A stretch of DNA of 64,000 bases, from positions 12,476 to 76,475 of IMG/VR virus record IMGVR_UViG_3300035034_001740; one strand, written 5' to 3'. The stretch is from a virus. Taxonomy: Duplodnaviria; Heunggongvirae; Uroviricota; Caudoviricetes. The translations under genes and the position numbers were made by a program. Positions within the stretch are counted from its first letter, which is position 1; each line of letters begins with the position of its first letter. The notes under the pieces are model-generated. The model ran no database searches. It was not told where the DNA came from and saw nothing but the letters and a program-made list of their open reading frames with translations. Positions 19,450 to 36,208 of this stretch are shown piece after piece.

Positions 19450-19451
19450 TT

Positions 19452-20735: not shown

Positions 20736-20740
20736 AAGTT

Positions 20741-22321
20741 ATGCCAAGAAAGTCAAAGTTGTTATATAATAGTGCCGAATGGGATTTTGACGCGATTCGT
20801 AGAGTATACGATGAATGTGACAAAATCGCTAAAGAGGAACTAAAGTTAGATATATACGAAAATCAGATTGAAATGATTTCATCTGAACAGATGCTTGATG
20901 CTTATACATCGGTGGGAATGCCTATCATGTATAATCATTGGAGCTTCGGAAAACATTTCGTCCAAGAGTCTACAAAATATAAGAGAGGTCAAATGGGATT
21001 GGCATACGAAATCGTCATTAACTCAGACCCTTGTATTTCGTATCTCATGGAAGAGAACACCATGACCATGCAGACATTGGTTATTGCTCACGCTGCTTTC
21101 GGTCATAACTATTTCTTCAAGAACAATTATCTGTTTAAAGAATGGACTGATGCTAGTGGCATCATACCGTATCTTTCATTCGCTAAACGTTACATCTCTG
21201 AGTGTGAAGAGAAGTATGGTGAACGTGAAGTTGAACTAATTCTCAACAGTTGTCATGCGTTGAAGAACCATGGCGTCAACAAATACAAAAGGCCGCCTCA
21301 GCTTTCAGTGGGCGAAGAGAAGTTACAACAACAAGAACGTCAAGACTTTTTGGATTCTTCTGTAAATCACTTGTGGAGAAGTTTCGACTCTACAACAAGA
21401 GACGGAGTGAACCCTAATACTTTTCCTGAGAAAGAGGAAGAGAACATTTTGTACTTCATGGAGAAGCATGCACCTAACCTTGAACCTTGGCAACGAGAAA
21501 TCATTCGTATCGTTCGTAAGGTAGCTCAATACTTTTATCCCCAACCTCAAACAAAGACCATGAATGAAGGGTGTGCTACATACGTTCACTACTACATCAT
21601 GAATCGTTTGTATGATAAGGGTAAAATCTCAGACGGTAACATGAAAGAGTTCTTAATCTCACACACCAATGTTGTTCATCAACCTGATTATGATGATGTA
21701 GTTATCTATAAAGACGAAAACGGCGAAGAGAAGTCATACAGTCGTTACAATGGTATTAATCCATATGCGTTAGGATTTGATATGTTGAGAGACATGGAAC
21801 GTATGTGTAAGAATCCAACGGAGGAAGATAAATACTATATGCCTGAGGTCGCTGGTACTGATTGGTTGGAAACGTTTCATTATTCGATGCAGAACTTTCG
21901 TGACGAAAGTTTCATCAGACAATACCTTAGTCCTACTATGGTTAGAAAGTGGAAGATGTTTGTTATGAATGATGACGCTGATGAAAGTTTATATAAGATA
22001 TCTGCTATCCAAGATCAAACAGGGTTCAACAATGTTAGGAACGCATTAGCAGAACAACACATGATAACTAATTACTATCCTGAGATTAAGATTACTAATG
22101 TCGATATTAAAGGTGATAGGTCAATGTTATTGACTCACCAATCACATGACGGTGTCGAAATCGGTAAAGACGATATAGAAGACATGATGAAACACTTGTA
22201 TCGTCTATGGGGTTATAACATTAAGATTGAAAGTTATAACTCAGAAGACGGAAGTATTATCGAAGAGTTTGAAACTGACTTTTCGGATGTGGAAGAAGAG
22301 GATGATGAATTTCCGTTTTAA
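20741..22321 (+). CDS. spoVR: SpoVR family protein
   Basis: ENQIEMISSEQMLDAYTSVGMPIMYNHWSFGKHF matches the conserved SpoVR N-domain; acidic C-terminal tail. Confidence 0.85.
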   Translation: MPRKSKLLYNSAEWDFDAIRRVYDECDKIAKEELKLDIYENQIEMISSEQMLDAYTSVGMPIMYNHWSFGKHFVQESTKYKRGQMGLAYEIVINSDPCISYLMEENTMTMQTLVIAHAAFGHNYFFKNNYLFKEWTDASGIIPYLSFAKRYISECEEKYGEREVELILNSCHALKNHGVNKYKRPPQLSVGEEKLQQQERQDFLDSSVNHLWRSFDSTTRDGVNPNTFPEKEEENILYFMEKHAPNLEPWQREIIRIVRKVAQYFYPQPQTKTMNEGCATYVHYYIMNRLYDKGKISDGNMKEFLISHTNVVHQPDYDDVVIYKDENGEEKSYSRYNGINPYALGFDMLRDMERMCKNPTEEDKYYMPEVAGTDWLETFHYSMQNFRDESFIRQYLSPTMVRKWKMFVMNDDADESLYKISAIQDQTGFNNVRNALAEQHMITNYYPEIKITNVDIKGDRSMLLTHQSHDGVEIGKDDIEDMMKHLYRLWGYNIKIESYNSEDGSIIEEFETDFSDVEEEDDEFPF

Positions 22322-22348
22322 TTAAAATAAAACAAAATTATTTAAAAT

Positions 22349-22383
22349 AAGACCCATCGATGAAATATTCGTTGGGTCTTTTC
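22349..22383 (+). terminator. Rho-independent terminator (aagaccca/tgggtctt stem + TTTT)
   Basis: Inverted repeat with a 16-nt loop after spoVR. Confidence 0.5.
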
Positions 22384-22423
22384 ATATATATGTATATATG
22401 AAAGTAAAGCACACACAACATAA
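22384..22423 (+). repeat. AT-alternating leader element ATATATATGTATATATG-AAAGTAAAGCACACACAACATAA (copy 1 of 2; see 45094)
   Basis: ~40-nt near-identical copy at 45094-45133; contains the start codon and first 8 codons of an MK[IV]KHT(R/Q)H gene. Confidence 0.6.
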
Positions 22424-23021
22424 ATCCATTCGGTCGCCTATAAAGGTGGGCCGATCTTGTTTTGACATTGGCGAACTACCATTTCCACAAATTTCGGACT
22501 TGAGACCATATCAACTCAAAATTTTTGATATGCTGTGTAGAGGTAAAACTTTGCATGTGACAAAATCTCGTCAAATTGGAATGACCACTGTAGCAGTTAT
22601 ATATGCCGGTTTAAAAATACAACAAGAAGGCGTTCGTCCAAACATTCTTGCAATGGATTCTAAGATGGAAAAACATATTGAACACATGATTACTGACCGT
22701 GTGGGCAATGAATCATGGAAATATATGCCAGTCGGTTGGTCTATGTTAGATGAAAGTGAATGGATACATGAACTTAAATTTAGAGGTGTGGATATAAAAG
22801 ACCAAGTGTTCTCATACTCATCTGTTCACTATGGAGGAGTATGTGACTTTCTGACAAGTAGATTTGTAAACGACCCTACATCAGAGTATAGATTGATAAC
22901 ATACAAAGATGCGTTTCCTGGAACTACTGATGAAGAGATTGACCAGTTGAAGTTGTATATGGGAAGTGTCGGATTTAATAAGGATATGATGTGTAAATTA
23001 CACCATGAGGAAAAGATTTAA
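22398..23021 (+). CDS. Hypothetical protein, MK[IV]KHTRHN-leader family member (MKVKHTQHK...)
   Basis: Starts with the conserved leader peptide; contains a P-loop-like SRQIGMTT. Confidence 0.5.
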   Translation: MKVKHTQHKSIRSPIKVGRSCFDIGELPFPQISDLRPYQLKIFDMLCRGKTLHVTKSRQIGMTTVAVIYAGLKIQQEGVRPNILAMDSKMEKHIEHMITDRVGNESWKYMPVGWSMLDESEWIHELKFRGVDIKDQVFSYSSVHYGGVCDFLTSRFVNDPTSEYRLITYKDAFPGTTDEEIDQLKLYMGSVGFNKDMMCKLHHEEKI

Positions 23022-23214
23022 AGGCGATTTAAAACTAACATCGGTCAACGTATTTGAAGATCGGTATAGAAAATTCAAAGAAGTAAATTTGGGTAGTAGT
23101 ATGACACTGCAAAAGTTGGTGAATCGTTCTTTAGCTCTATATCTAAAAGATGATGAGTATAGAATATTACTCGATGAAATGTTAGATTTACAAGATAGTG
23201 GAAGTTCGTTCTAA
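23005..23214 (+). CDS. Hypothetical protein
   Basis: ORF only. Confidence 0.35.
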   Translation: MRKRFKGDLKLTSVNVFEDRYRKFKEVNLGSSMTLQKLVNRSLALYLKDDEYRILLDEMLDLQDSGSSF

Positions 23215-23276: not shown

Positions 23277-24776
23277 TTGATGAAAAATAAAAAAAAGAGA
23301 ATACTTTTGTTAAGCGATGATATTAGGATGCACAGTGGCATTTCTACGATGTCAAGGGAACTGGTTTTGGGTTGTGTACACAAATATGATTTTGTACAGG
23401 TGGCGGCTGCTCAAAAGCATCCTGAAGAGGGGAAGGTTTTTGATATGAGTGATGCTGTTAACAAAGAAAAAAATATTACAGACTCATATGTTAAGTTATA
23501 TCCAACGAGCGGATACGGAAATCCGGACCTTATTCGCCGTTTGATTAAAGAGGAAGAGATTGATGTTATACTTCACTTTACTGACCCAAGATTCTGGACG
23601 TGGTTATATAATATTGAAAGAGAAATACGCCAACAGATTCCAATTACGTATTTAAACATCTGGGATAATATTCCCGCTCCAATGTGGAACCGACCATTTT
23701 ATATGAGTTGTGATGCTTTGTTTTCAATCTCTAAACAAACTTACAATATCAATAAGATTGTATTGGGTGAAGATTGTTGGGTTAGTTCAAAAGACGTAAA
23801 ATCCAAAGACGACTTGAAAGGGAAATCTTTACTTCATTATGTCCCACACGGAATCAATGAAGATGTATTTAAACCGTTAGATAAAAACGATTCTAAACTG
23901 TTGGATTTTAAAAAGAAGATTTTTGGCAATAAAGAGTATGAGTATGTTTTATTTTATAACAATCGGAATATTGGAAGAAAGCGTGTATCGGATATAATAC
24001 TAGCATACAGAAGTTTTTGTGATTCATTACCTAAGAAAGAATCTGATAAGTGTTGTTTGTTGTTACATACCGCTAAAGTTGACCCAAGTGGAACAGACCT
24101 TCCAGCGGTGATTGAAGCTTTGTGTCCAGACTATAACATAGTATTCAGTACTAACAAGTTGGCGCCATTTGAAATGAACATGTTATACAATATTTCAGAT
24201 GTTGTTGTTAACAACGCTAGTAATGAAGGGTTTGGTTTAAGTCATGCTGAAGGTTTGATGGCTGGACGAGTTTTAATTAACAATGTCACCGGTGGATTGC
24301 AAGACGGAGCTAATTTCATGGATGATGATGGCAACGCTGTTGAGTTTACAGACGAATGGGGCAGTAATCACGATGGTCGATATAAGAAGTGTGGTAAGTG
24401 GGTAAAACCTGTCTTTCCAGCTGCTAGGCAGATTCATGGTTCTCCTGCTACTCCATATCTATTTGATGATCACACCAGATGGGAAGATTTCGCTGAGGCT
24501 ATTATGTATTGGTATCTGAAGGGGCCTGAAGAAAGAACTGAATGTGGTCAAGCTGGTCGTGAGTTCGCTATGGGTGACGGTGGATTGAATTCTAAGAATA
24601 TGAGCAAACAGTTAATTCTTGGTATGGAAACAACACTTAATAACTGGACTCCAAGATCAAAATTTAGTATTCACACAGACGATGAATACCACGGACACAC
24701 ATACGAAAATGGATGTGGAGTTATAATTCCGCCGGTCAACATCGAAAAAATCAAGGAGGAAATATCAAATGAGTAA
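23277..24776 (+). CDS. Glycosyltransferase, family 1 (GT-B)
   Basis: C-terminal NNASNEGFGLSHAEGLMAGRVLI matches the GT1 E-x-FG...E-A-x-A-x-G-x-PVI motif. Confidence 0.6.
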   Translation: MMKNKKKRILLLSDDIRMHSGISTMSRELVLGCVHKYDFVQVAAAQKHPEEGKVFDMSDAVNKEKNITDSYVKLYPTSGYGNPDLIRRLIKEEEIDVILHFTDPRFWTWLYNIEREIRQQIPITYLNIWDNIPAPMWNRPFYMSCDALFSISKQTYNINKIVLGEDCWVSSKDVKSKDDLKGKSLLHYVPHGINEDVFKPLDKNDSKLLDFKKKIFGNKEYEYVLFYNNRNIGRKRVSDIILAYRSFCDSLPKKESDKCCLLLHTAKVDPSGTDLPAVIEALCPDYNIVFSTNKLAPFEMNMLYNISDVVVNNASNEGFGLSHAEGLMAGRVLINNVTGGLQDGANFMDDDGNAVEFTDEWGSNHDGRYKKCGKWVKPVFPAARQIHGSPATPYLFDDHTRWEDFAEAIMYWYLKGPEERTECGQAGREFAMGDGGLNSKNMSKQLILGMETTLNNWTPRSKFSIHTDDEYHGHTYENGCGVIIPPVNIEKIKEEISNE

Positions 24777-24993
24777 TTTTTACTTCAGACTATCAACCAT
24801 GTTTTACAGTATTGGAAAATACTTTGAACTCAAATCGTTCAAATCTGCCGTTTCAGACAGAGTTATGATTGACTTTCAAAAGAGGGTAAATTATAAAACA
24901 TCACATCCGATTGATGTGAATGATATTCGTGAAGCCATTGATAATGGTGATGACATATGTTTAAAGTTCGGCACTTATAAAAAGAAAAAATGA
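24769..24993 (+). CDS. Hypothetical protein
   Basis: ORF only. Confidence 0.3.
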   Translation: MSNFYFRLSTMFYSIGKYFELKSFKSAVSDRVMIDFQKRVNYKTSHPIDVNDIREAIDNGDDICLKFGTYKKKK

Positions 24994-25523
24994 AAACTAG
25001 AAACATATCAGACACGGAATATCAAATGCATAAATTGAGATTAGATTATGTAAATACAATATCAAAGTTTACTGCTATATCAGTTTCAGAAGCATTTAGA
25101 ATGGCAGACTTAATGATAACTCCAATCGAAGTTACAACAGATGAGAATCAAAACTCTCCGGCGGCCAACCCTAAAGGTGAAGACACTCCAGAGGAATCGG
25201 AATATCCTATAGCAAGTCCAATTCGTATTGGGAATCAACCTACTACCTCACCGACACAAAAGGTGACGCCTCAGTTTGAAGACATGGTTGACCCCAAAAT
25301 AAAGTCAACCGTTCCAGACAAAAAAGAGTTGCAGGTTAGTGAGGAACTTTATGATTCTCGTACTGCTGGGGGAACAATCCCTATGAGGTATGAAGACAGA
25401 GTTAAGTATGCTGAGGGTCATTCGTCACAACCTCAAAAAGAATCTATTGAACGGGCCGACGGAAATAAAGTTGATGGTCGAGGATTTGGAGAAAGCGGTG
25501 GAGATTACCCCCCATTACGATAA
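24990..25523 (+). CDS. Hypothetical Pro/Thr/Glu-rich protein
   Basis: Low-complexity central region. Confidence 0.4.
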   Translation: MKTRNISDTEYQMHKLRLDYVNTISKFTAISVSEAFRMADLMITPIEVTTDENQNSPAANPKGEDTPEESEYPIASPIRIGNQPTTSPTQKVTPQFEDMVDPKIKSTVPDKKELQVSEELYDSRTAGGTIPMRYEDRVKYAEGHSSQPQKESIERADGNKVDGRGFGESGGDYPPLR

Positions 25524-25539
25524 TTTTTAAGAATACAAT

Positions 25540-26838
25540 ATGAAAAATAATATAAATAAACCTATATGTGTATTACAGGCTCCTGTTTTTTCACGTTCTG
25601 GCTACGGCGATCATTCAAGAGACATACTAAGATCGTTATACAATAGAGATGAATATGATATAAAGGTCGTTGCTACGACTTGGGGAAGTTGTCCCAACAC
25701 GGAGTTACAAGATGATTCTGAGTTTGCAAAGTTCGTTCGAAACTCCATCCTTAAAGGCCCGTTACAAAAGAAGCCTGAGATTCATATTCAGATAAGCATT
25801 CCAAACGAATTCACTCCACAAGGAAAATACAACATCGGGATTACAGCCGGTATTGAAACGACTTTGTGTCGTGCTGAATGGATTGAGGGTGTGAATAAAA
25901 TGGATTTGATCATCGTGCCTTCACAACACGCTAAGACGGTCTTCGAAAACTCAAAGTTCAAAAAGAAATTGGATGACGGTCAAGATGTTCCTGTTAAGTT
26001 AGAGAAACCAATTGAGGTATTGTTTGAGGGAAGCGATTTAGAAGTGTTCGGTCGTGGGAAGCCGAAACACCCATCAGTTGATGAACAGTTGAAAGCTGTC
26101 AAAGAAGATTTCTGTTTTCTATTTGTCGGTCATTGGCTGCAAGGTGACATCGGTGCTGATCGTAAGGATATTGGGATGTTAGTTAAAACGTTCCTTCAAG
26201 TATTTAAAGGTAAGAAGGAGGCTCCTGCTCTAGTTTTAAAAACTAGTGGTGCTGGTTTCTCTGTTGTTGATCAAATGGAATGTCTTCGTAAGATTAAGAT
26301 GATTCGTGAGAGTGTGGGTGGTGACGATCTACCAAACGTATATCTGTTACACGGGGAACTTACAATGCATGAACTCAACTATCTATACAACCATACCAAA
26401 GTAAAGGCTCACGTATCATTTACTCACGGTGAAGGATATGGAAGACCGTTGCAAGAAGCGTCATTGAGTGGGAAACCAGTTATCGCTAGTGGGTGGAGTG
26501 GTCATGTTGATTTCTTGAACAAGGATTATGCCGAACTCCTAACCGGCGAACTCGTAAAGATTCCAGATTCGGCTGCCAATGAATGGATAATCAAAGAAAG
26601 TAAATGGTTTGCCGTAAATTATTCTATCGCGGCCCAACGACTTGAAGATGTGTTTAAGAATTATAAGAAGTATGAGACTAAAGGCCAGAAACTTGCCCGA
26701 GAGAATGAAAAGAAGTTTTCATTAACAAAGATGTATGAAAACTTCGATAAGATACTTGACAACAATCTCCCCAAGTTTACTATTACGGCAGACATTCAAC
26801 TTCCAAAACTTAATTTGCCTAAGTTGAAAAAGAAATAA
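25540..26838 (+). CDS. Glycosyltransferase, family 1 (GT-B)
   Basis: HGEGYGRPLQEASLSGKPVIASGWSGH matches the GT1 C-terminal motif. Confidence 0.6.
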   Translation: MKNNINKPICVLQAPVFSRSGYGDHSRDILRSLYNRDEYDIKVVATTWGSCPNTELQDDSEFAKFVRNSILKGPLQKKPEIHIQISIPNEFTPQGKYNIGITAGIETTLCRAEWIEGVNKMDLIIVPSQHAKTVFENSKFKKKLDDGQDVPVKLEKPIEVLFEGSDLEVFGRGKPKHPSVDEQLKAVKEDFCFLFVGHWLQGDIGADRKDIGMLVKTFLQVFKGKKEAPALVLKTSGAGFSVVDQMECLRKIKMIRESVGGDDLPNVYLLHGELTMHELNYLYNHTKVKAHVSFTHGEGYGRPLQEASLSGKPVIASGWSGHVDFLNKDYAELLTGELVKIPDSAANEWIIKESKWFAVNYSIAAQRLEDVFKNYKKYETKGQKLARENEKKFSLTKMYENFDKILDNNLPKFTITADIQLPKLNLPKLKKK

Positions 26839-26894
26839 AATGAAACCAACAAACAACACTTTCGAATTCAAACTGTTAAAGAAAGAATTGACCC

Positions 26895-27692
26895 ATGAAA
26901 ATATCATTTTTAGTTACAGTTCATAACGAAACTACTGAGTTACAAACTTTGTTGAGCCAGTTGAATAGTTATTTGGATTCTACTGGACATAAAGATGAAG
27001 TTGTAATTCTAGACGATTACTCAACAAACAAAGATACAATCGATTTGATTGATACGTATTCCTCCATTGATAATTTTACAGTAGTTAAACATAAGCTCGA
27101 TGTTAAAGGTGAAGGATTCGGTGGTCACAAACAGTTTGGCAACGAACAGTGTAGTGGAGATTATATTTTCCAAGTTGATGCAGACGAATACTTTTCTGAC
27201 GCCCTACTTTACAACCTGAAAGAGTTGTTGATCGGAAACCCAACTGTGGATTTGTTCTTAATTCCAAGAGTCAACATCATAAGAGAACTGAATGTTTGGA
27301 ACTATGCCAAGTATGGATGGCAGATTTCAAAACTTGATGAATTTGAAGAACAAAAGGTGTTCGATGATCAATCATCAGAGTATCAATTTATAAAGAACTT
27401 CAATTTCGTAAGTAACGAAAAGAGAATAAGTGAAACTCAGATCGATGTTACATATAAACTTCCTATTATAAATTGGGGGTCCGGAGATTACCAATATAGA
27501 TTATACAGAAACTCAAAAGGTATAACATGGGATCGTCCGTTACATGAGTTGATAATTGGTGCTGATGTACAAACGTATCTGCCTAAAGAAGTTGAATGGT
27601 CACTCATACATGACAAGACGATGAGACGTCAAACTCAACAGAACACCTTTTACATGACGGAATTCAGCCAGGAGATGAATACAAGAAACTAA
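26895..27692 (+). CDS. Glycosyltransferase, family 2 (GT-A)
   Basis: MKISFLVTVHNE...VVILDDYSTN...QVDADEY (DxD). Confidence 0.6.
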   Translation: MKISFLVTVHNETTELQTLLSQLNSYLDSTGHKDEVVILDDYSTNKDTIDLIDTYSSIDNFTVVKHKLDVKGEGFGGHKQFGNEQCSGDYIFQVDADEYFSDALLYNLKELLIGNPTVDLFLIPRVNIIRELNVWNYAKYGWQISKLDEFEEQKVFDDQSSEYQFIKNFNFVSNEKRISETQIDVTYKLPIINWGSGDYQYRLYRNSKGITWDRPLHELIIGADVQTYLPKEVEWSLIHDKTMRRQTQQNTFYMTEFSQEMNTRN

Positions 27693-27696
27693 GATT

Positions 27697-28236
27697 ATGA
27701 ATACAATACTTGAACATTACGAATTAAAATGCAACACACGATCCGACATAAACGAACATCTACCTACGTTGTTTAGATATTCAAGTGAGTGTGATCATAT
27801 CACTGAAATGGGAGTTAGGGAAGTTGTTTCGACGTGGGCATTTCTGAATGCCAAACCCAGAAAAATGGTTAGTTATGATCTGTATACGAGTACACATATA
27901 AACGAACCCTTGAGACTCGCTAAAGAGAGTGGGATTGATTTTTCCTTCGTCGAAGCAAATGTATTGGAAGTCGATATCGAAAAAACTGATCTATTGTTTA
28001 TTGATACCGCTCACCAATATGAACAATTAAAGAATGAACTTTCGAAACATTCTGGCAAGGTTAAGAAATATATCATTCTACACGACACCACGTTATTCGC
28101 TCACACAGATGAGTCGACAGGTAATGTGGGTGGATTGGTTAAGGCCCTCGATGAATTTTTAGAAGAGAACTCTAATTGGCAACGGAAAGAAGTGTTTACA
28201 AATAACAATGGATTAACCGTACTCGAACGGGTTTAA
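27697..28236 (+). CDS. Class I SAM-dependent methyltransferase (TylF/CmcI-like, putative)
   Basis: ITEMGVREVVSTWAF...LLFIDTAHQYE...ILHDT resembles macrocin-O-MTase-like folds. Confidence 0.4.
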   Translation: MNTILEHYELKCNTRSDINEHLPTLFRYSSECDHITEMGVREVVSTWAFLNAKPRKMVSYDLYTSTHINEPLRLAKESGIDFSFVEANVLEVDIEKTDLLFIDTAHQYEQLKNELSKHSGKVKKYIILHDTTLFAHTDESTGNVGGLVKALDEFLEENSNWQRKEVFTNNNGLTVLERV

Positions 28237-28281
28237 TATAAATAATACTTAATTACAATATGGTCAATCAGTATATACAAC

Positions 28282-28893
28282 ATGCATTTTAACAGATTAC
28301 AACATCATTTCGATACTGGTGAAATGACCCCAACTTACGTTCTGGATATAGGAGCTAATAAAGGGGAATGGACACGTCAAGCATCACATATATGGAAATC
28401 TGCTAATTTCTATATGATTGAGGCATGTGAAGTTCACTCTAATCATTTAAAGGTCGTTGGATTTCCATACGATATACGAATCTTATCAGATTCATGTAAA
28501 TCCGTTGAGTTCTATACAAATAAGACTGACTTAGCATCAACAGGAAACTCACTCTACCGTGAAGACACCCATTACTTCTCAGACGATAACATATTGATAG
28601 AGACTAAAGAAGCTCGTTCGTTGGATTCGTTGAACTTGGGAAGGTTTGACATGATCAAATTGGATACACAAGGGTCTGAGATTGATATACTAAAAGGGTC
28701 ATCTGAAACCTTACTGGGTGTCAAACATATATTAATGGAAGTTTCCCTTACACAATATAATATTGGTTCTCCCAGGTTTTATGATGTGATTGAGTTTATA
28801 AATTCAATCGGATTCGAAGTTTTAGATATAATTGATAACCATTACTTAAACAATGAGCTCATTCAGGTGGATGTCTTATTTAAACGAAAATGA
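28282..28893 (+). CDS. FkbM family methyltransferase
   Basis: VLDIGANKGEWT is the FkbM signature. Confidence 0.6.
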   Translation: MHFNRLQHHFDTGEMTPTYVLDIGANKGEWTRQASHIWKSANFYMIEACEVHSNHLKVVGFPYDIRILSDSCKSVEFYTNKTDLASTGNSLYREDTHYFSDDNILIETKEARSLDSLNLGRFDMIKLDTQGSEIDILKGSSETLLGVKHILMEVSLTQYNIGSPRFYDVIEFINSIGFEVLDIIDNHYLNNELIQVDVLFKRK

Positions 28894-29621
28894 AAGTTTA
28901 TTACAGAATATCCGATTCGGGTTACAACAAAGTAAAGCCTGATTACATTTCCAATGAAAATTGTTATAATAACTTCATTAATAATTTCAAACACCCTAAC
29001 GAAGTCATATTGATAGCTGATAATGTCTCAGATGTTACGTGGTCATGGTGTCAGAATATGAGAGATCGTGATGGTCTACTTGAGATACATCGAACTAACG
29101 GTGGTTCATCTGGAAAAGGTTTCAATATATGTTATGATATGGCAATTCAACATGATGACGATGAGATAATATTCTTCGTGGAGAATGATTATATATTTGT
29201 CGATGGGATTTACGATTTTATGTTGGAAGCGTTTTACTTCGGTATTGAATATTTGACTCCGTATTTACATCCGGATAAGTTCATACCAGCTTCGCAGGGT
29301 GGGAATGTATTGGTAGACGATGACGGTGGTCAAGTTACGAAGGTGTTTAATACAGGCAGTCGATTCTGGATGTTAACTGATTCAACCACAATGACATTTG
29401 CTTCTACTGTTGGGGTGTTAAAACAAGACATGGATATAATAAAAGCATTCACATCAGAGCCATATCCAAACGATTGTAAGATGTTCCATTCTCTACGGGA
29501 TAAAGGACGTTCATTAGCACAACCCATTCCCACATTAGCCACTCACGGTGAGACGTCATGGATGGCATCTACAATTGGATTACATACAAACAATTGGGAG
29601 GATATTATTTATGGAAAATAA
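28890..29621 (+). CDS. Hypothetical protein, possible GT-A fold glycosyltransferase
   Basis: ILIADNVSD...HDDDEIIFFVENDY is a DxD-like arrangement. Confidence 0.35.
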   Translation: MKVYYRISDSGYNKVKPDYISNENCYNNFINNFKHPNEVILIADNVSDVTWSWCQNMRDRDGLLEIHRTNGGSSGKGFNICYDMAIQHDDDEIIFFVENDYIFVDGIYDFMLEAFYFGIEYLTPYLHPDKFIPASQGGNVLVDDDGGQVTKVFNTGSRFWMLTDSTTMTFASTVGVLKQDMDIIKAFTSEPYPNDCKMFHSLRDKGRSLAQPIPTLATHGETSWMASTIGLHTNNWEDIIYGK

Positions 29622-29862
29622 AGATTTAATTATAGGCGCAGTCGGTGATTATACGTTTGACCACACGGATAATTGTCCTTCACAGGATGACCCTCGTTAC
29701 CATGACTTTATCGAAGGCAGGAAGTTCTTTTATAATGAAGCTTATAATCAACGTCACGTTGGATACTCCAATCTTGCATATGATCACTCAACGTTTGATA
29801 TGGATGGCATCGCTAATGGCATTTGGATAAAGTCATCTAACTATAAACTTATTAATATATAA
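29611..29862 (+). CDS. Hypothetical protein
   Basis: Start chosen at the ATG overlapping the upstream stop (MENKDLIIGAVGDY...). Confidence 0.35.
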   Translation: MENKDLIIGAVGDYTFDHTDNCPSQDDPRYHDFIEGRKFFYNEAYNQRHVGYSNLAYDHSTFDMDGIANGIWIKSSNYKLINI

Positions 29863-29876
29863 CAACATATTATAAA

Positions 29877-29904
29877 TTGACATGTGTATCTCATATATCA
29901 TAAT
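29877..29904 (+). promoter_or_regulatory. sigma70-like promoter TTGACA-16-CATAAT
   Basis: ATAAATTGACA extended -35, upstream of the GT2 gene at 29913. Confidence 0.45.
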
Positions 29905-29912
29905 ATACTAAA

Positions 29913-30722
29913 ATGATTTCAGTAATTATACCAACTTATAAGAATCCAGAATATCTGGACATTTGTTTATCTTCATGTATCTCAGGTTCTAAGTTAGATA
30001 CCACTAGAATTATTGTTGTGGTTGACGGTTACATAGAACTATCTCAGAAGATATTGGATACGTATAATGAATCTATTTCGGTGTTAGACTTGGATGTCAA
30101 TCGTGGGATGGATGCTGCTATTAATTTAGGAGTTTGGAATTGTGATTCTGATAAGGTCTTCGTAGTGAACGATGATCAAATCTTTGCTGATGGGTGGGAT
30201 ATTGAACTAGATGCGTTAGACGTCGATTCCACGGTGTATACTATAGAACAGATAGAACGCAACGCTGGTATATTTAATTTTCACGTTGCTAACTTCGGAG
30301 ATACTGTTGATACATTTGACATGGAGAAATTCAATGAGTATGTAAATACTCACTCATCGAATAAACAAACTGACTCTGCCAGAATTTTCCCTTTTCTACT
30401 GAGTAAAAGGTGGTTCATGACTGTGGGCGGTTTTGAAAATTACAATTCTCCGTTTTGGACTGATGTCGATTTCTTTTTAAAGTTAGAACTAGCGGGTCTC
30501 ACATTCAAACGAATATACCACACAATGTTATTTCATTGGGGATCAACCGCTACAAAAAACCGCAAAGATTCTGAGTCGGTAGGTTTCCAAGATGGAGAAA
30601 GTCGGGCTGCTGAACAATTTTTTTATAAATGGGGGTATTTGCCACAGATAGGTGGCCAAAATACAGTTAATACGAAATATCCGACGCATAACAAGACTAT
30701 CAAAGGGATCGTATATGAGTAA
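29913..30722 (+). CDS. Glycosyltransferase, family 2
   Basis: MISVIIPTYKNPEYLDICL is the classic GT2 N-terminus; DxD in VVNDDQIF. Confidence 0.7.
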   Translation: MISVIIPTYKNPEYLDICLSSCISGSKLDTTRIIVVVDGYIELSQKILDTYNESISVLDLDVNRGMDAAINLGVWNCDSDKVFVVNDDQIFADGWDIELDALDVDSTVYTIEQIERNAGIFNFHVANFGDTVDTFDMEKFNEYVNTHSSNKQTDSARIFPFLLSKRWFMTVGGFENYNSPFWTDVDFFLKLELAGLTFKRIYHTMLFHWGSTATKNRKDSESVGFQDGESRAAEQFFYKWGYLPQIGGQNTVNTKYPTHNKTIKGIVYE

Positions 30723-31764
30723 ACACACATTTTTAATAACAGGAGTTGCTGGATTGATCGGATCGAATATGGCACACTGGTTAATAACCCATACAGATAG
30801 TAATGTCGTTGGTATTGATGATTTGTCAGGGGGAGCTGTTTCAAATTTGCCTGATGAGTCAGATAGATTTAAGTTTTATCAAGGCGATGCCGCGTCTGAT
30901 ATATTGAATCATATATTTGAGACTCACAAACCAACTCATGTATATCATTTTTCGTGTTGGGCGGCTGAAGGAGCCAGTCCATTTTTCAGAAAGCATAGTT
31001 TCTATACTAATAACATGGTGTCTGCTAATGTAGTTAATAACTGTATAAATCACGATGTCACCCGATTGTTGTTTACAAGTACAATGGCGGTATATGGCTA
31101 TGGGGATAACAACCCACCGTTCAGTGAAGAATTGATACCTGCCCCGATTGATACGTATGGTATTGGTAAATATGCAGTTGAGATGGATATACGGGTAGCT
31201 GGGATTCAACATGGGTTGGATTGGTGTATAATTCGTCCTCATAATGTATATGGGAAATTTCAACAGTATAATGACAAGTTTAGAAATGTGTTGGGGATTT
31301 GGATGTTCCAATACCTAAGAGGTTTGCCGCTAACTATATTTGGGGATGGTGAACAAAAACGGTCATTCTCATACATTGATGACACCCTTCACTGTTTTTA
31401 TAACGCGATGATGTTTTCTGAGTGTTCGTGTGAAGTTATCAATTTAGGTGGTATTCATGAATATTCTATAAATGACGCGTTAAGTGTTGTATTAGAGGTT
31501 TTTGAGGCTGATGGCAATCCATTTGGGTTTCCTCAAGTAGTACACTGTGAGTCTCGACACGAAGTGAAGGATGCTTATCCTACATATCAAAAGAGCGTCG
31601 ATATGTTGAAGTTTAACCATGTTACTGATTTAAGAAGTGGCATACAACATATGTGGAATTGGGTTAAGGATGATTACACCGCCCATAATAGATGTCAACT
31701 TGAGTTGGGTGAATTTGAAGTGTCTAAAGGGGTATACGAACAGTGGAAAGTCGATAAAAAATGA
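30716..31764 (+). CDS. NAD-dependent epimerase/dehydratase (extended SDR)
   Basis: FLITGVAGLIGSNMAHWL is a GxxGxxG Rossmann motif; YGIGKYAVE is the YxxxK catalytic motif. Confidence 0.8.
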
Positions 31765-33590: not shown

Positions 33591-34877
33591 ATGAATCTCT
33601 TTAAAAATATAGCGAAGGAACTTCTTATGGAAAGAGAAGGGACGTTTGAGAAATGTTCAACTCAAGCTAATCTTCGGGAAGGTAAGAACGCTATTCTCAA
33701 ACTGGCAAATCTCGTGTCTGATGACCATCTACATGAGTATGGCCGTGAGAACGACCCCCATGTGACTGTATTGTATGGTATAACCCCATCCTTGTCAGCT
33801 AAGAGGGGTGTTGAAGAGGCTATCCGCAAATCAGGTATCAATGAAATAAGAGGTTGTATAGGCGAATGTTCATTATTCGAACTAGAGGATTTTGATGTAG
33901 TTAAATTCGAAGTTATATCTGAGAATTTGCACCAGTTACACGATGCTATCTGTGAAGACGTTCCCTATACGACAGACTACCCAGACTATAACCCACACAT
34001 TACAGTAGCATACGTAAAACCAGGATTGGGCCAACAGTATGTTAATAGGATAGGTAATAAGTTAGAGGGCGTCCCTTTGAGACTTGATACTATTCAATTC
34101 AGTGATGTTGACGGAACACAGACTCCAATTAAGTTGGGATATCCGGACAATGAAGACGCACAACATCCTGACACAGGTGGAATGAATGAAGACCTTGGTG
34201 TCGGCGGCGGCTTTATGAGCGGCGGTAATCAAGGTATGGGTTACATGGGTGGCCATCAGGGGGTATTTAACTCACCTGAAGTCGGAGCAAGTTCTAACAA
34301 ATATAGATCATACAGCAGAAATAGTATGTCGGGGGCTAACACTGTGGTTTCTAGTGGTTACTACGATACTGTATTTGATCAAGATGTTGAGAAAATCATG
34401 AGTATCTTGCACGATTTAGGGATTAAAACTGCTGGAATGCCTGTCAACCGTGACGAAAAAGATTTTAGTGTTCAAGGATTTGACAGTCAACATTCCGGTT
34501 TTAGAATCCCCAATGATGTCAACGTAAAGTCTTCAGATGATGTTATGAATGATACTTCTGGAATCAACCTATCCAGAAAGACCGTAATGAAACACTTGAA
34601 ACTTGAGTTCGGTGATGAACTTCCAGATTTAATAAAACAAAACCAAGACAAAATCAACTTTGATGAAATTATGCTTGGACTGAAAGAAGTAATGAGGGAT
34701 ATGAAATATCCAGACAAGGATTTCGCTTTTATGAAAGTTCTTAAACAACTTATACGAGAACCAAACTATTATACAGGTCTCGGTAAGTATGACATTGGTG
34801 AGTCGTATGAACGAAGCATCTATGGAACAAAATTTAAACCAAATGAAATCTCAAATATATTAGAAGGATTAAAATGA
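33591..34877 (+). CDS. Hypothetical protein with N-terminal 2H phosphoesterase domain
   Basis: DPHVTVLYGIT and NPHITVAYVKPG are the two HxTx motifs; Gly-rich linker; C-domain unknown. Confidence 0.5.
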   Translation: MNLFKNIAKELLMEREGTFEKCSTQANLREGKNAILKLANLVSDDHLHEYGRENDPHVTVLYGITPSLSAKRGVEEAIRKSGINEIRGCIGECSLFELEDFDVVKFEVISENLHQLHDAICEDVPYTTDYPDYNPHITVAYVKPGLGQQYVNRIGNKLEGVPLRLDTIQFSDVDGTQTPIKLGYPDNEDAQHPDTGGMNEDLGVGGGFMSGGNQGMGYMGGHQGVFNSPEVGASSNKYRSYSRNSMSGANTVVSSGYYDTVFDQDVEKIMSILHDLGIKTAGMPVNRDEKDFSVQGFDSQHSGFRIPNDVNVKSSDDVMNDTSGINLSRKTVMKHLKLEFGDELPDLIKQNQDKINFDEIMLGLKEVMRDMKYPDKDFAFMKVLKQLIREPNYYTGLGKYDIGESYERSIYGTKFKPNEISNILEGLK

Positions 34878-35467: not shown

Positions 35468-36208
35468 ATGAAGGTATATATATTATTACTATTAACACTG
35501 ATATTTTCAGTGAGCTGTTCGTCTATGTCAGTCAACCGTCAAGCGGGTGGTATGCTTGACATACAAGGACGGTTAGGTAAAGCGGGTGTACAACAACCTG
35601 AAAACGCAAGAGACTCCGCTACCTTAACTTATAATGAAGATGGCGTTAAGATTCCGATGGGTGATGGTGACGAACTTGAGGTAATAGTTGATAAGGGCGT
35701 TTTGGGTGGGGTTAGAAAAACAATTATGTATAAACCAAAAAACAAGTCTAACGTTGAGGTATCTAACATAACAGCTGATGGCACAACCGGAACAAGTCAC
35801 AAGGATATGGTGGGTCAGTTAAAAGTATTTATGAAAAGCGCTAAGATAATCCTTTGGGTTGGTATAGGGTTTCTTGTTTCCGGCGGCGTATTCGCTGGTT
35901 TCTTGAGAGATACACGGACAGGGATGATCTTAGGTGGTATCGGTGCTTTGATGCTTATAGGATTTGCTGTGTTGCCACAAATTTACGCTAACTATCTGTT
36001 GGTGTTAGGAATTCTCTCTATTGTTATTCCTGTGATGTGGTATCTGAATATGAGAAGAAATGAGAGACTATTGAAAGCATCCGTTGAGACACATGAAGAG
36101 TTGAAGATTAAAGACCCTGAGAAGGCTAAGGAACAATCCAATGAGTTCAAGCAGAAGATAGACCCAAAGGACTTAGATCACGTTAAAAAATTAAAGAACG
36201 TCAACTAA
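35468..36208 (+). CDS. Membrane protein (signal peptide + 3 predicted TM helices)
   Basis: N-terminal hydrophobic stretch VYILLLLTLIFSVSC; later TM-like stretches. Confidence 0.5.
   Translation: MKVYILLLLTLIFSVSCSSMSVNRQAGGMLDIQGRLGKAGVQQPENARDSATLTYNEDGVKIPMGDGDELEVIVDKGVLGGVRKTIMYKPKNKSNVEVSNITADGTTGTSHKDMVGQLKVFMKSAKIILWVGIGFLVSGGVFAGFLRDTRTGMILGGIGALMLIGFAVLPQIYANYLLVLGILSIVIPVMWYLNMRRNERLLKASVETHEELKIKDPEKAKEQSNEFKQKIDPKDLDHVKKLKNVN

What the first reader, a model, noticed from the sequence alone, without database searches (positions are those of the whole stretch)
23277..31764. 8.5-kb glycosylation locus
Eight enzymes lie in one co-oriented block: two GT1 glycosyltransferases, two GT2 glycosyltransferases, a possible GT-A protein, two methyltransferases (one FkbM) and an SDR epimerase/dehydratase. 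FkbM and TylF-like methyltransferases together with glycosyltransferases resemble O-methylated sugar and glycan decoration pathways. In a phage this could modify virion proteins (capsid or tail glycosylation) or host surface polysaccharide, for example for superinfection exclusion. I see no flippase or polymerase in the block, which argues for protein or soluble-acceptor glycosylation rather than polysaccharide export.
Basis: partly seen in the sequence, partly recalled or inferred. Interest (0 to 1): 0.55.

Follow-up and report, generated by a model that had tools for sequence, protein, structure and literature searches.

The report
Phage glycan-building gene cluster
This is a real gene cluster in a large aquatic phage that builds a methylated sugar chain, but what the chain is attached to is still unknown, with the phage's own proteins my best guess.

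Summary
Window 23277-31764 is a co-oriented, tightly packed block. Six enzymes pass curated profile thresholds: two GT4-type GT-B glycosyltransferases, two GT2, one FkbM methyltransferase and one SDR epimerase-like enzyme. Two more are only tentative: a CmcI/Methyltransf_24-like methyltransferase and a divergent GT-A.

The block has two layers. The core is a 69-aa protein, GT1A, GT1B and GT2a. It is syntenic in Flavobacterium phage immuto, Microcystis phage Mel-JY01, a 401-kb huge phage and 80 IMG/VR contigs, and the GT pair recurs in Rhodothermus phage RM378. The family is almost absent from cellular genomes. The 4 kb downstream is a fast-turnover tailoring island, and here it is a mosaic of sub-modules seen separately in other phages.

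No flippase, polymerase, initiating transferase or other multi-pass membrane protein accompanies the cassette, here or in relatives. DNA glycosylation is unlikely. Published LC-MS of immuto DNA reports no glycosylated base, and the window's ThyA is canonical.

Best reading (about 0.35-0.4): a cytoplasmic assembly line that puts a strain-variable, O-methylated oligosaccharide on a conserved phage-specified acceptor, probably virion protein. Modification of host envelope glycans is the main rival. The acceptor is inferred, not shown.

The parts
23005..23214 (+). Conserved 69-aa basic protein (pI 9.05) immediately upstream of the GT pair. It has a beta-alpha-alpha (ribbon-helix-helix-like) sequence pattern and a conserved C-terminal SGSx[FY] motif. 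Function unknown: a regulator, or more speculatively a carrier or acceptor.
   Evidence: tblastn finds it at the same position in 38 of 82 loci, and a 69-aa ORF sits there in the 401-kb huge phage. No Pfam or NCBIfam hit. The RHH reading is inferred from the sequence pattern only.
23277..24776 (+). GT1A: GT4-type, GT-B fold, probably retaining glycosyltransferase, and a core gene. The likely true start is ATG 23280 (498 aa).
   Evidence: PF00534 at 33 bits and phrog_2170. AF2 pLDDT 84.8. Foldseek matches GlgM, chlorovirus B736L (3oy2), PimB' and MshA. The EX7E motif (NEGFGLSHAE) is invariant in 40 homologues. Present in 82/82 loci. At least 7995 homologous clusters. Family median pI 5.99. The SD sequence AAGGAAGAG lies upstream of 23280.
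24769..24993 (+). 74-aa ORF of unknown function, inserted between the two core GTs. Found only in this phage.
   Evidence: No family hit. No homologue in the 82 loci. Not homologous to the ORF inserted at the same place in L086.
24990..25523 (+). 177-aa acidic (pI 4.9) ORF rich in Pro/Ser/Thr/Glu, of unknown function, inserted between the two core GTs. Found only in this phage.
   Evidence: No family hit. No homologue in related loci. Composition.
25540..26838 (+). GT1B: GT4-type, GT-B fold, probably retaining glycosyltransferase, and a core gene.
   Evidence: PF00534 at 27.3 bits and phrog_2170 at 2.5e-22. AF2 pLDDT 89.8. The top PDB match is 3oy2 (chlorovirus NY-2A GT, E 1e-16), followed by BshA, TreT, SPS and MshA. 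The top BFVD matches are giant-virus GTs. The EX7E motif (GEGYGRPLQE) is invariant. There are 629 50%-identity clusters at E<=1e-30. Some family members carry an intein inside EX7E. P0400 is a natural GT1B-GT2a fusion.
26895..27692 (+). GT2a: GT-A fold family-2 glycosyltransferase with DAD (DXD) motif. Third core gene.
   Evidence: PF00535 at 54.7 bits. Present in 68/82 loci, and in 42/45 loci that have a full downstream flank. Fused to GT1B in P0400 (29% identity, E 1e-25).
27697..28236 (+). Probable CmcI/Methyltransf_24-like SAM-dependent O-methyltransferase (tentative). Part of the variable island.
   Evidence: PF13578 E=0.029, below threshold. Of 3634 homologues, 2 of the 120 listed carry PF04989, and one is named cephalosporin hydroxylase. 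Invariant E37-G39, D61, D103/H106 and H129-D130 fit a class I methyltransferase by inspection. A family profile finds nothing in PDB sequences. A homologue lies next to an SDR homologue in L021.
28282..28893 (+). FkbM-family methyltransferase. Part of the variable island.
   Evidence: PF05050 at 45.7 bits, TIGR01444 at 46.5 against a cutoff of 37.7, phrog_8156. Homologues in L052, L078 and L067.
28890..29621 (+). Probable divergent GT-A glycosyltransferase (tentative). It forms a conserved adjacent pair with GT2b.
   Evidence: GT2 is sub-threshold here (E=0.064) and in homologues (3.3e-4, 0.022). hhalign against a GT2 profile gives 73% probability and E=3e-5, aligning ADN...ENDY with D...DxD. 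In L068 and L041, and in Mel-JY01, p243 directly abuts GT2b; in L039 the two lie about 1.2 kb apart.
29611..29862 (+). 83-aa ORF: C-terminal remnant of a GT7-like (beta-4-galactosyltransferase-type) gene. Probably decayed.
   Evidence: Matches the C-terminal end of intact 243-aa proteins in L076/L078 (E 1.6e-13). Those proteins hit Glyco_transf_7N and 7C (2.6e-13, 1.4e-15).
29913..30722 (+). GT2b: GT-A fold family-2 glycosyltransferase. Part of the variable island.
   Evidence: PF00535 at 51.4 bits. Homologues in L068, L070, L041, Mel-JY01 and L039.
30715..31764 (+). Extended SDR, a nucleotide-sugar epimerase-like enzyme of undefined specificity. Part of the variable island.
   Evidence: PF01370 at 126.5 bits and phrog_540 at 1.6e-44. 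No NCBIfam equivalog is passed (best 94 bits against cutoffs of 262-365). It has GxxGxxG, STMAVYG and YGIGK and no Thr-Asp-Glu dehydratase triad (sequence; interpreted from general SDR knowledge). The closest locus homologue is in L021 (377 bits).

Best explanation
The block is a phage-encoded, membrane-independent, Leloir-type glycan assembly line.

Shown:
- Two GT4 enzymes with intact EX7E motifs (GT1A, GT1B) and a GT2 enzyme (GT2a) form a phage-restricted core that is always found together.
- Downstream lies a rapidly exchanging set of tailoring genes. Here these are two more GT-A enzymes, an FkbM methyltransferase, a probable CmcI-like methyltransferase and a nucleotide-sugar epimerase-like SDR.

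Inferred:
- The core enzymes use host nucleotide sugars. The SDR supplies an epimerised one.
- The core lays down the first sugars on one conserved acceptor.
- The variable enzymes extend the chain and cap it by O-methylation, which gives each phage strain its own glycan.

Most likely acceptor (inferred, about 0.35-0.4): one or more phage-encoded proteins, probably exposed on the virion. Mycobacteriophage capsid and tail glycosylation and giant-virus capsid or fibril glycosylation are the precedents. The variable glycan would then act as a surface coat that changes how the particle is recognised or how stable it is.
For: Enzyme identities. GT-B folds with high confidence.

GT1A and GT1B are always paired in the same order in 82/82 loci. 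GT2a is present in 68/82. The pair also occurs in the huge phage GCA_902730405.1 and, without an adjacent tailoring island, in RM378.

A natural GT1B-GT2a fusion and GT1B-GT9-like-GT2 fusions show the core enzymes act on one substrate.

The acceptor looks conserved and phage-specific. The N-terminal domains are highly conserved (mean column identity 72% for GT1A and 65% for GT1B) across phages of Flavobacterium, Microcystis and Rhodothermus. Only 3 hits turned up in 185,579 species genomes, all on short MAG contigs.

No membrane machinery is present: 0 TM segments in all cluster proteins, and no ORF with 4 or more TM among 640 downstream ORFs.

The downstream island turns over quickly. Its median Jaccard similarity is 0.19 when GT1B is still 80-95% identical. 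Its chemistry is typical of exposed glycans: NeuB with a CMP-transferase, GT10/GT11 fucosyltransferases, FkbM and Methyltransf_24, DegT and PEP mutase.

The nearest structures are viral GTs from systems with virus-autonomous glycosylation (3oy2 is the top PDB match for GT1B; giant-virus GTs lead in BFVD; review PMC9614988).

Outside the family, the only sequence hits among 50,697 phage records are Arthrobacter phage GTs. In Kitkat that gene lies between the tail terminator and the tail chaperones.

In Che8-type phages the GT genes lie far from the structural genes, yet the capsid is glycosylated (PMC11256854).

Inteins inside the EX7E motif of some GT1B homologues point to strong purifying selection, by inference from what is generally known of intein insertion sites.
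Against: No acceptor has been identified. No virion protein is in the window, and no glycoproteomic data exist for any relative.

The cassette sits in the replication and nucleotide-metabolism region, not the structural module.

The top cellular structural neighbours (BshA, MshA, TreT, SPS, GlgM) use small soluble acceptors, and PimB' and WaaG use lipid-linked ones. Peripheral-membrane GT4 enzymes need no TM segment, so the absence of TM helices does not exclude a lipid-linked host acceptor.

The 82 loci were selected through GT1B, so 'core gene of the lineage' is not independently shown.
Confidence: 0.37

Rival explanations
1. Remodelling of the host envelope. The soluble GTs work at the cytoplasmic face of the membrane on a host lipid-linked intermediate, such as Und-PP-sugar or an LPS core or peptidoglycan precursor. 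The host's own transporter or ligase then exports the altered, methyl-capped glycan. This changes the surface of the infected cell, for example to block superinfection or to stop progeny adsorbing to infected cells and debris.
For: GT4 enzymes such as PimB', WaaG and PglA are among the structural matches. In ABC-transporter-dependent O-antigen pathways all GTs are TM-less and the chains are terminated by methylation (general knowledge). Cyanophage GT and epimerase clusters are usually interpreted this way (PMC12801897). Island variability could track host glycan diversity. GT2a and GT2b have weak GtrB-like PHROG hits.
Against: No initiating phosphoglycosyltransferase, flippase, polymerase, ligase or ABC component is present here or near the cassette in 82 loci. 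The core GTs are conserved at 45-47% identity between phages of Bacteroidota and Cyanobacteria, whose envelope glycans differ. The family is essentially absent from cellular genomes, so it was not recently borrowed from host polysaccharide loci. The pair is retained even in RM378, where no tailoring genes adjoin it.
Confidence: 0.23
2. DNA hypermodification. The GTs glycosylate a hydroxylated base (5hmC, 5hmU or 5hoC) in phage DNA to evade restriction, as T4 alpha/beta-GT, the RB69/DLP3 arabinosyltransferases and the MT/5mYOX-linked GT clusters do.
For: The cassette lies among replication and nucleotide-metabolism genes, next to a PD-(D/E)XK nuclease: dUTPase, dCMP deaminase, ThyA and DHFR in the window, and a pol I-like gene and RNR in RM378. 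T4-type phages also carry two GT-B DNA glucosyltransferases (general knowledge). DNA-modifying GT-B enzymes also resemble BshA and MshA in fold searches, and DNA glycans can be diverse (Pyle et al.).
Against: Published LC-UV-MS/MS of immuto_2-6A DNA shows canonical dA, dC and dT, with dG replaced by fdPreQ1, and reports no glycosylated nucleoside (PMC10516641). That phage carries the same core.

The only ThyA homologue in the window has all 12 E. coli active-site residues, including L143, D169 and N177. By the criteria of PMC13326640 it is an ordinary dTMP synthase, and it passes TIGR03284.

No TET/JBP or C5-methyltransferase Pfam hit was found in the window. T4 alpha/beta-GT are not among the top 50 PDB or BFVD matches. 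GT1A is acidic, with a family median pI of 5.99.

Caveat: only 64 kb of this phage is visible, so a hydroxylase could lie elsewhere in the genome.
Confidence: 0.1
3. Synthesis of a soluble cytoplasmic glycoside or methylated oligosaccharide, such as a compatible-solute-like compound or a polymethylated polysaccharide, which would alter host physiology during infection.
For: The best cellular structural neighbours of both GT4 enzymes use small soluble acceptors (BshA, MshA, TreT, SPS, GlgM). GT1A also matches a methylmannose-polysaccharide mannosyltransferase, 7qsg. That pathway combines a GT4 enzyme with O-methyltransferases and needs no export (general knowledge). No membrane components are present.
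Against: The variable islands encode nonulosonic-acid, fucosyl, amino-sugar and phosphonate chemistry, which is typical of complex exposed glycans. Diversifying turnover is hard to explain for an intracellular metabolite. Fold ranking within GT4 does not discriminate acceptors well.
Confidence: 0.08

Closest known systems
Mycobacteriophage virion glycosylation (Che8, Corndog, Myrna type; Freeman et al. 2023, cited through PMC11256854 and PMC12619734; details from my own knowledge)
   Same: Phage-encoded soluble GTs, in some phages with an O-methyltransferase, decorate phage proteins in the cytoplasm. The genes need not lie in the structural module. The glycans vary between phages.
   Different: No sequence orthology: tblastn of GT1A and GT1B against 50,697 phage records finds no mycobacteriophage hit. 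The hosts are Gram-negative aquatic bacteria. The cassette here has a universal GT4-GT4-GT2 core and sits in much larger genomes. Glycosylated virion proteins have not been demonstrated.
Autonomous glycosylation in giant viruses (chlorovirus A064R, A546L/B736L; mimivirus fibril clusters; PMC9614988)
   Same: Virus-encoded clusters of GTs, methyltransferases and sugar-nucleotide enzymes act without ER/Golgi or membrane export. The glycans are methyl-capped and strain-variable. The best solved-structure match to GT1B is chlorovirus B736L (3oy2, E 1e-16), and its best BFVD matches are Klosneuvirinae GTs.
   Different: These are eukaryotic viruses. Identity is only 13-20%. B736L's own acceptor is unknown. 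This is fold-level resemblance, not family membership.
Phage DNA glycosylation systems (T4 alpha/beta-GT; MT/5mYOX-linked GT clusters, Pyle et al.; 5hoC arabinosylation, PMC13326640)
   Same: Multi-GT phage clusters near nucleotide-metabolism genes. GT-B enzymes that resemble BshA and MshA. Diverse glycans.
   Different: No hydroxylated-pyrimidine source lies next to the cassette. ThyA is canonical. A phage carrying the same core has no glycosylated nucleoside reported in its DNA. T4 GTs are not among the top fold matches.
Cyanophage 'LPS / cell-wall modification' gene clusters (P-SSM2, S-SCSM1, S-SCSM2R; PMC12801897) and bacterial ABC-transporter-dependent O-antigen loci
   Same: Runs of GT1, GT2, GT10 and GT11 genes, NDP-sugar epimerases and methyltransferases in large aquatic phages. 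TM-less GTs.
   Different: Those clusters are also functionally uncharacterised. The phage-specific GT4 pair described here was not reported as their core. Bacterial loci carry initiating transferases and export genes, which are absent here.
GtfA/GtfB O-glycosylation of serine-rich repeat adhesins (recalled from memory; a lead only)
   Same: Two adjacent GT4-type GT-B paralogues start cytoplasmic protein O-glycosylation, and GT-A enzymes then extend the glycan.
   Different: Not tested. GtfA/GtfB structures were not among the top 50 Foldseek matches. Both phage proteins keep the EX7E motif, whereas GtfB is non-catalytic (from memory).

Membership tests
CAZy GT4 / Pfam Glycos_transf_1 retaining GT-B glycosyltransferases (GT1A, GT1B) | Pfam PF00534 score above the gathering threshold | tested here: met
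   33.0 and 27.3 bits against a cutoff of 26.4. GT1B is only marginally above it.
CAZy GT4 / Pfam Glycos_transf_1 retaining GT-B glycosyltransferases (GT1A, GT1B) | Two-Rossmann-domain GT-B fold closest to solved GT4 enzymes | tested here: met
   AF2 pLDDT 89.8 and 84.8. The top 50 Foldseek PDB hits are mostly GT4 enzymes (3oy2, BshA, MshA, PimB', SPS, TreT, GlgM), alongside other retaining GT-B families such as OtsA and glycogen synthases, at E 1e-16 to 1e-8.
CAZy GT4 / Pfam Glycos_transf_1 retaining GT-B glycosyltransferases (GT1A, GT1B) | EX7E motif in the C-terminal domain | tested here: met
   GT1A has E-GFGLSHA-E and GT1B has E-GYGRPLQ-E. Both glutamates are invariant in 40 and 39 homologues.
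CAZy GT4 / Pfam Glycos_transf_1 retaining GT-B glycosyltransferases (GT1A, GT1B) | Glycosyl transfer with retention, from a defined NDP-sugar donor | not testable with these tools
   Needs an enzyme assay.
GT2 (Pfam Glycos_transf_2) GT-A glycosyltransferases (GT2a, GT2b, p243) | PF00535 above threshold, with a DXD motif | tested here: met
   GT2a scores 54.7 bits with DAD. GT2b scores 51.4 bits with NDD.
GT2 (Pfam Glycos_transf_2) GT-A glycosyltransferases (GT2a, GT2b, p243) | The same criteria applied to the 243-aa protein at 28890-29621 | tested here: inconclusive
   13.6 bits (E=0.064). Homologues score 21.1 and 15.1 bits against a cutoff of 23.3. hhalign gives 73% probability and E=3e-5. 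No structure was predicted.
FkbM methyltransferase family | PF05050 and TIGR01444 above their curated cutoffs | tested here: met
   45.7 bits against 22.7 and 46.5 against 37.7.
TylF / CmcI / Methyltransf_24 O-methyltransferases (27697-28236) | Profile match above threshold, or a class I methyltransferase fold | tested here: inconclusive
   PF13578 at 15.7 bits against a cutoff of 26.3, and no TylF hit. Two of the 120 listed homologues carry PF04989. A family profile finds nothing in PDB sequences. No structure was predicted.
Phage DNA-glycosylation gene clusters | An associated source of a hydroxylated pyrimidine: a ThyA homologue with N177D, D169N or an L143 change, or a C5-methyltransferase plus 5mYOX/TET | tested here: not met
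   ThyA 41908-42816 keeps all 12 active-site residues of E. coli ThyA (criteria). No TET/JBP or C5-methyltransferase hit was found in the window. Only 64 kb of the genome is visible.
Phage DNA-glycosylation gene clusters | Glycosylated bases in virion DNA | not testable with these tools
   For the relative immuto_2-6A, which carries the same core, published LC-MS shows dA, dC, dT and fdPreQ1 only (PMC10516641). There are no data for this phage.
Wzx/Wzy- or ABC-dependent polysaccharide loci and Gtr-type seroconversion modules | Initiating polyprenyl-phosphate transferase, flippase, polymerase or ABC permease, or GtrA/GtrC membrane proteins | tested here: not met
   All cluster proteins have 0 predicted TM segments. 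None of 640 downstream ORFs in 82 loci has 4 or more TM. The few ORFs with 4 or more TM lie upstream of the cassette and occur in only six of the loci. The TM predictor was a simple hydropathy-window scan, not a dedicated tool.
Mycobacteriophage-type virion glycosylation | Glycans covalently attached to capsid or tail subunits | not testable with these tools
   Needs virion glycoproteomics. No structural genes lie in the window.
Mycobacteriophage-type virion glycosylation | Sequence homology to the Che8, Corndog or Myrna GTs | tested here: not met
   tblastn of GT1A and GT1B against the phage collection gives no mycobacteriophage record at E<=1e-5 or 1e-6. Only Arthrobacter phage GTs match, at 27-31% identity over the C-terminal domain.
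Pfam GT4-conflict (PF20706) | Profile match above threshold | tested here: not met
   The window's GT1A has no hit at E<=0.05. The homologue P0256 matches only residues 279-350, at 29.2 bits.

The most novel reading that the evidence does not exclude
A very large lineage of aquatic phages, with genomes from 130 kb to over 400 kb, carries its own membrane-independent protein-glycosylation system. A fixed GT4-GT4-GT2 core primes a phage protein. This could be a virion subunit or, more speculatively, the conserved 69-aa protein with its invariant C-terminal SGS motif. A fast-exchanging tailoring island then gives each strain a different methyl-capped glycan coat, which would be the phage equivalent of O-antigen serotypes.
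Probability: 0.3. Interest if true: 0.75.

Novelty: new variant of a known kind. Interest (0 to 1): 0.5.

Why it matters
Virus-encoded glycosylation is established for giant viruses and for some actinobacteriophages. For the abundant large phages of aquatic Gram-negative bacteria, GT clusters are usually called 'LPS' or 'cell-wall' genes without any test.

The core GT pair found here defines a phage-restricted family of at least 8000 clusters at 90% identity and about 630 at 50% identity. It spans phages of three host phyla. It is conserved enough to host inteins in its catalytic motif, and it is always followed by a hypervariable sugar-tailoring island.

If the acceptor is virion protein, many environmental phages would carry strain-specific glycan coats. 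That would bear on adsorption, grazing, particle stability and immune recognition. If the acceptor is the host envelope, or after all DNA, the cassette would still be one of the most widespread uncharacterised phage modification systems.

Two cultured phages, immuto and Mel-JY01, carry it, so the question can be tested directly.

Tried and rejected
- Megablast of the block against 50,697 phage records found no match.
- Literature search for Mel-JY01 found nothing. A four-term search for glycosylated phage capsids with phage-encoded GTs found nothing. RM378 papers and the Far-T4 paper do not discuss the GTs. Freeman et al. 2023 is not held.
- The promoter and terminator scan shows no enrichment over shuffles: 44 promoter-like sites against 46 expected. 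It was not used.
- GC content and skew show no foreign-DNA signature for the block.
- phmmer and profile searches of the 179-aa and 243-aa proteins against PDB sequences gave nothing meaningful.
- The two ORFs inserted between GT1A and GT1B are not homologous to the ORFs inserted at the same site in the huge phage L086. I rejected the idea of a conserved third partner there.
- The RM378 pol I-like protein is not related to the PD-(D/E)XK nuclease.
- GT4-conflict membership was rejected.
- I rejected a bacterial genomic island or a host-derived O-antigen locus. Synteny is with isolated phages, and the scan of 185,579 genomes gave only three short MAG contigs.
- There are no tRNA genes in the window.
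- Whether 'moraphages' (PMC12619734) are the same lineage could not be established.

Full report
**1. What is in the sequence**

Window 23277-31764 is a run of co-oriented + strand ORFs with 4-8 nt overlaps or short gaps. Pfam places six of them above curated thresholds:
- two Glycos_transf_1 proteins: GT1A at 23277-24776 and GT1B at 25540-26838;
- two Glycos_transf_2 proteins: GT2a at 26895-27692 and GT2b at 29913-30722;
- an FkbM methyltransferase at 28282-28893, which also passes TIGR01444;
- an extended SDR of the NAD-dependent epimerase/dehydratase family at 30715-31764.

PHROGs agrees.

- The 179-aa protein (27697-28236) reaches only E=0.029 on Methyltransf_24. It has 3634 homologues, a few of which carry the CmcI family PF04989. 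A family profile finds nothing in PDB sequences.
- The 243-aa protein (28890-29621) is sub-threshold on GT2, both here and in its homologues. It aligns to a GT2 profile at 73% probability and E=3e-5 across the nucleotide-binding Asp and the DXD-like ENDY motif.

- a 74-aa ORF and an acidic, P/S/T/E-rich 177-aa ORF wedged between the two GT1 genes;
- an 83-aa ORF that is the C-terminal remnant of a GT7-like glycosyltransferase, which is intact in L076/L078;
- just upstream, a conserved 69-aa basic protein at 23005-23214.

GT1A most likely starts at ATG 23280, behind a good Shine-Dalgarno sequence.

**2. Context**

The rest of the window is an auxiliary and nucleotide-metabolism region of a large phage, with no structural genes and no tRNAs. 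It contains:
- NAD salvage genes (NAMPT, NMNAT/Nudix, PRPP synthetase);
- a PD-(D/E)XK nuclease;
- an intein-interrupted IMPDH/GMP-reductase and further intein genes;
- a cobalamin adenosyltransferase;
- PrkA, DUF444 and SpoVR;
- dUTPase, an Acb1-like 2H phosphoesterase, UvdE, dCMP deaminase, ThyA, DHFR and a helicase.

The same contig occurs in two metagenome assemblies.

**3. Relatives and architecture**

GT1B and GT1A have 45-47% identical homologues, in the same order, in Flavobacterium phage immuto and Microcystis phage Mel-JY01.

A scan of IMG/VR returned 133 relatives. In the 80 loci kept, plus the two isolates:
- GT1A and GT1B are both present in 82/82;
- GT2a is present in 68/82;
- the upstream PD-(D/E)XK nuclease is present in 76/82;
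- the 69-aa ORF is detectable in 38/82.

All of these are in the same order. A 401-kb huge-phage contig (GCA_902730405.1) has the same layout. Rhodothermus phage RM378 carries a distant GT1A/GT1B pair (26% and 23% identity) between a pol I-like gene and ribonucleotide reductase, with no adjacent tailoring genes.

Both families are very large in metagenomes. Each reaches about 8000 clusters at 90% identity, which is the cap of the search. A GT1B profile finds 629 clusters at 50% identity with E<=1e-30.

In contrast, a pattern scan of one genome from each of 185,579 prokaryotic species found only three loci, all on 11-26 kb MAG contigs. The core is therefore phage-restricted, as far as that scan can see.

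Natural fusions tie the core enzymes to one pathway. P0400 is a GT1B-GT2a fusion. P0449 and P0495 combine GT1B, a GT9-like domain and a GT2-like domain.

**4. The variable island**

Downstream of GT1B the gene content turns over quickly.
- 640 ORFs from the loci fall into 207 clusters.
- Locus pairs whose GT1B is still 80-95% identical share a median Jaccard of only 0.19 of their downstream clusters.

A Pfam survey of 149 cluster representatives shows a varied sugar-chemistry toolbox: GT2, Methyltransf_24, FkbM, DegT aminotransferases, CMP-sugar synthetase with NeuB and UDP-GlcNAc 2-epimerase, GT10/GT11 fucosyltransferases, acetyltransferases, radical SAM enzymes, a C-methyltransferase and PEP mutase.

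The window's island is a mosaic of sub-modules seen separately elsewhere:
- the 179-aa protein plus the SDR, as in L021;
- the GT7-like remnant plus FkbM, as in L076, L078 and L052;
- the 243-aa protein plus GT2b, as in L068, L041, L039 and Mel-JY01.

Base composition gives no sign of recent foreign origin.

**5. Structures and motifs**

AlphaFold models of GT1B (pLDDT 89.8) and GT1A (84.8) are GT-B folds.

The closest solved structure to GT1B is the chlorovirus NY-2A glycosyltransferase B736L (3oy2, E 1e-16). For GT1A, 3oy2 ranks third behind GlgM. The remaining matches are GT4 enzymes: BshA, MshA, TreT, sucrose-phosphate synthase, PimB', WaaG and a methylmannose-polysaccharide mannosyltransferase.

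Among predicted viral structures, the best GT1B matches come from giant viruses and uncultured tailed phages, including an FkbM-GT fusion. T4 alpha/beta-GT are not in the top 50.

Both proteins keep an invariant EX7E motif, so both are probably catalytic. By general knowledge of GT4 enzymes, they are probably retaining.

The SDR has the GxxGxxG, S/T and YxxxK elements but lacks the Thr-Asp-Glu triad of 4,6-dehydratases. It passes no NCBIfam equivalog. I read it as an epimerase-like enzyme of unknown specificity.

**6. What it does not contain**

None of the cluster proteins has a predicted TM segment. None of the 640 downstream ORFs in related loci has four or more.

Across both strands of all loci, only six ORFs have 4 or more TM segments. 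They occur in only six of the 82 loci, and all lie upstream of the cassette.

So there is no flippase, polymerase, ligase, ABC permease, initiating phosphoglycosyltransferase or Gtr-type protein.

**7. The DNA rival**

Because the neighbours are nucleotide-metabolism genes, DNA glycosylation had to be examined. Four points argue against it.
- Published LC-UV-MS/MS of immuto_2-6A DNA finds canonical dA, dC and dT, and complete replacement of dG by fdPreQ1, with no glycosylated nucleoside reported (PMC10516641). That phage carries the same GT core.
- The criteria of PMC13326640 distinguish ordinary thymidylate synthases from hydroxylating homologues. By them, the window's ThyA is ordinary: it has all twelve E. 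coli active-site residues, including L143, D169 and N177, and it passes the thymidylate synthase equivalog. DHFR, dCMP deaminase and dUTPase complete a normal dTMP pathway.
- No TET/JBP or C5-methyltransferase domain was found anywhere in the window.
- GT1A is acidic.

The caveat is that only 64 kb of this phage is visible. T4 itself has both a normal Td and a separate hydroxymethylase.

**8. Mechanism and ranking**

Shown: a phage-restricted, always-paired GT4-GT4(-GT2) core, followed by a rapidly exchanging tailoring island, with no membrane components.

Inferred: a cytoplasmic assembly line that uses host nucleotide sugars. The core primes one conserved acceptor, and the variable enzymes extend the chain and cap it with methyl groups.

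I favour a phage-encoded protein acceptor, probably on the virion (about 0.37), for these reasons:
- the acceptor-side domains are conserved across phages of three host phyla;
- the family is not shared with cellular polysaccharide loci;
- the nearest viral structural neighbours come from viruses with autonomous virion glycosylation;
- outside the family, the only sequence hits in the phage collection are Arthrobacter phage GTs, and in Kitkat that gene sits between the tail terminator and the tail chaperones;
- in Che8-type phages the GT genes lie far from the structural genes yet glycosylate the capsid (PMC11256854).

The main rival is remodelling of host envelope glycans through host export machinery (about 0.23), because peripheral GT4 enzymes need no TM helices. 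DNA glycosylation (about 0.10) and a soluble glycoside or oligosaccharide product (about 0.08) follow.

**9. Novelty**

Phage GT clusters are known, and GenBank already labels the immuto and Mel-JY01 genes 'glycosyltransferase'. A 2025 study notes GTs among the core genes of another large aquatic phage lineage, without assigning a function (PMC12619734).

I did not find any description of the following:
- the phage-specific GT4 pair as a conserved unit;
- its combination with a hypervariable tailoring island;
- its breadth, from RM378 to 400-kb phages.

I therefore class it as a new variant of a known kind. Interest is moderate, because the key question, the acceptor, remains open. It can be tested in two cultured phages.

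Noticed in passing
Proteins P0361, P0367, P0382 and P0454 (homologues of window 25540-26838): Some GT1B homologues carry an intein of about 400 aa, with LAGLIDADG-type motifs, inserted exactly inside the catalytic EX7E motif: THGEGF|C...VVHN|CRPxLEA. This was read directly in P0361 and P0367. P0382 and P0454 show the same two-stretch profile break. An intein in a glycosyltransferase is unusual and suggests the gene is under strong purifying selection. The window's own GT1B has no intein.
   Followed up: partly
window 17281-22321: A complete PrkA (AAA kinase), DUF444 (YeaH) and SpoVR (YcgB) triad is encoded by the phage. PrkA homologues at 55-59% identity occur in 634-642 kb huge phages and in Ralstonia jumbo phage RsoM2USA.
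   Followed up: partly
window 8840-23214: In most relatives the PD-(D/E)XK nuclease lies about 0.1-2.5 kb upstream of the 69-aa ORF and GT1A. Here about 13 kb of auxiliary genes is inserted between them: IMPDH, intein-bearing genes, a cobalamin adenosyltransferase and PrkA/DUF444/SpoVR.
   Followed up: partly
window 10495-15490: Several neighbouring genes carry Hint or intein splicing domains. An IMPDH/GMP-reductase is split over 10495-11412 (IMPDH N-terminal part plus Hint) and 11518-12360 (IMPDH C-terminal part). Three further ORFs, at 12503-13174, 13334-14494 and 14522-15490, have Intein_splicing hits.
   Followed up: no
window 1479-7569: An NAD+ salvage set: an NMNAT-like cytidylyltransferase (1479-2102), a Nudix protein (2092-2979), NAMPT (3990-5444) and PRPP synthetase (6565-7569). 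An HNH endonuclease gene lies on the opposite strand at 5439-6440.
   Followed up: no
window 33591-34877: A 428-aa protein has an N-terminal 2H phosphoesterase domain that matches the 2'-5' RNA ligase family and the anti-CBASS Acb1 family (E 5.5e-9 and 2.9e-7), followed by a long low-complexity C-terminal part.
   Followed up: no
window 40892-41485: A fusion of DUF1289 with a ribosome hibernation factor domain (Ribosomal_S30AE) is encoded by the phage.
   Followed up: no
window 23005-23214 and homologues in 38 loci: The 69-aa protein upstream of the GT pair has a conserved KLTSVK...LQKLVNRS pattern, which looks like a ribbon-helix-helix, and an almost invariant C-terminal SGSx[FY] motif. It has no family hit.
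   Followed up: partly
window 22398-23021: A 207-aa ORF just upstream of the cassette has a Walker-A-like KSRQIGMTT segment reminiscent of terminase or ATPase N-domains. It has no Pfam hit and no homologue in the related loci.
   Followed up: no
window 35468-36208: This is the only ORF in the window with 4 predicted TM segments (246 aa, no Pfam hit). It lies 3.7 kb downstream of the block, with unrelated genes in between.
   Followed up: no
window, one ORF among the 40 in alignment A2: One small ORF hits Agglutinin_C and Lectin_C_term (ricin-type lectin C-terminal domains, E 3e-6 and 9e-5).
   Followed up: no
L086 (GCA_902730405.1) 11519-12546, and window 24769-25523: The junction between GT1A and GT1B is a repeated insertion site. 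Unrelated pairs of small ORFs occupy it in this phage and in the 401-kb huge phage.
   Followed up: yes
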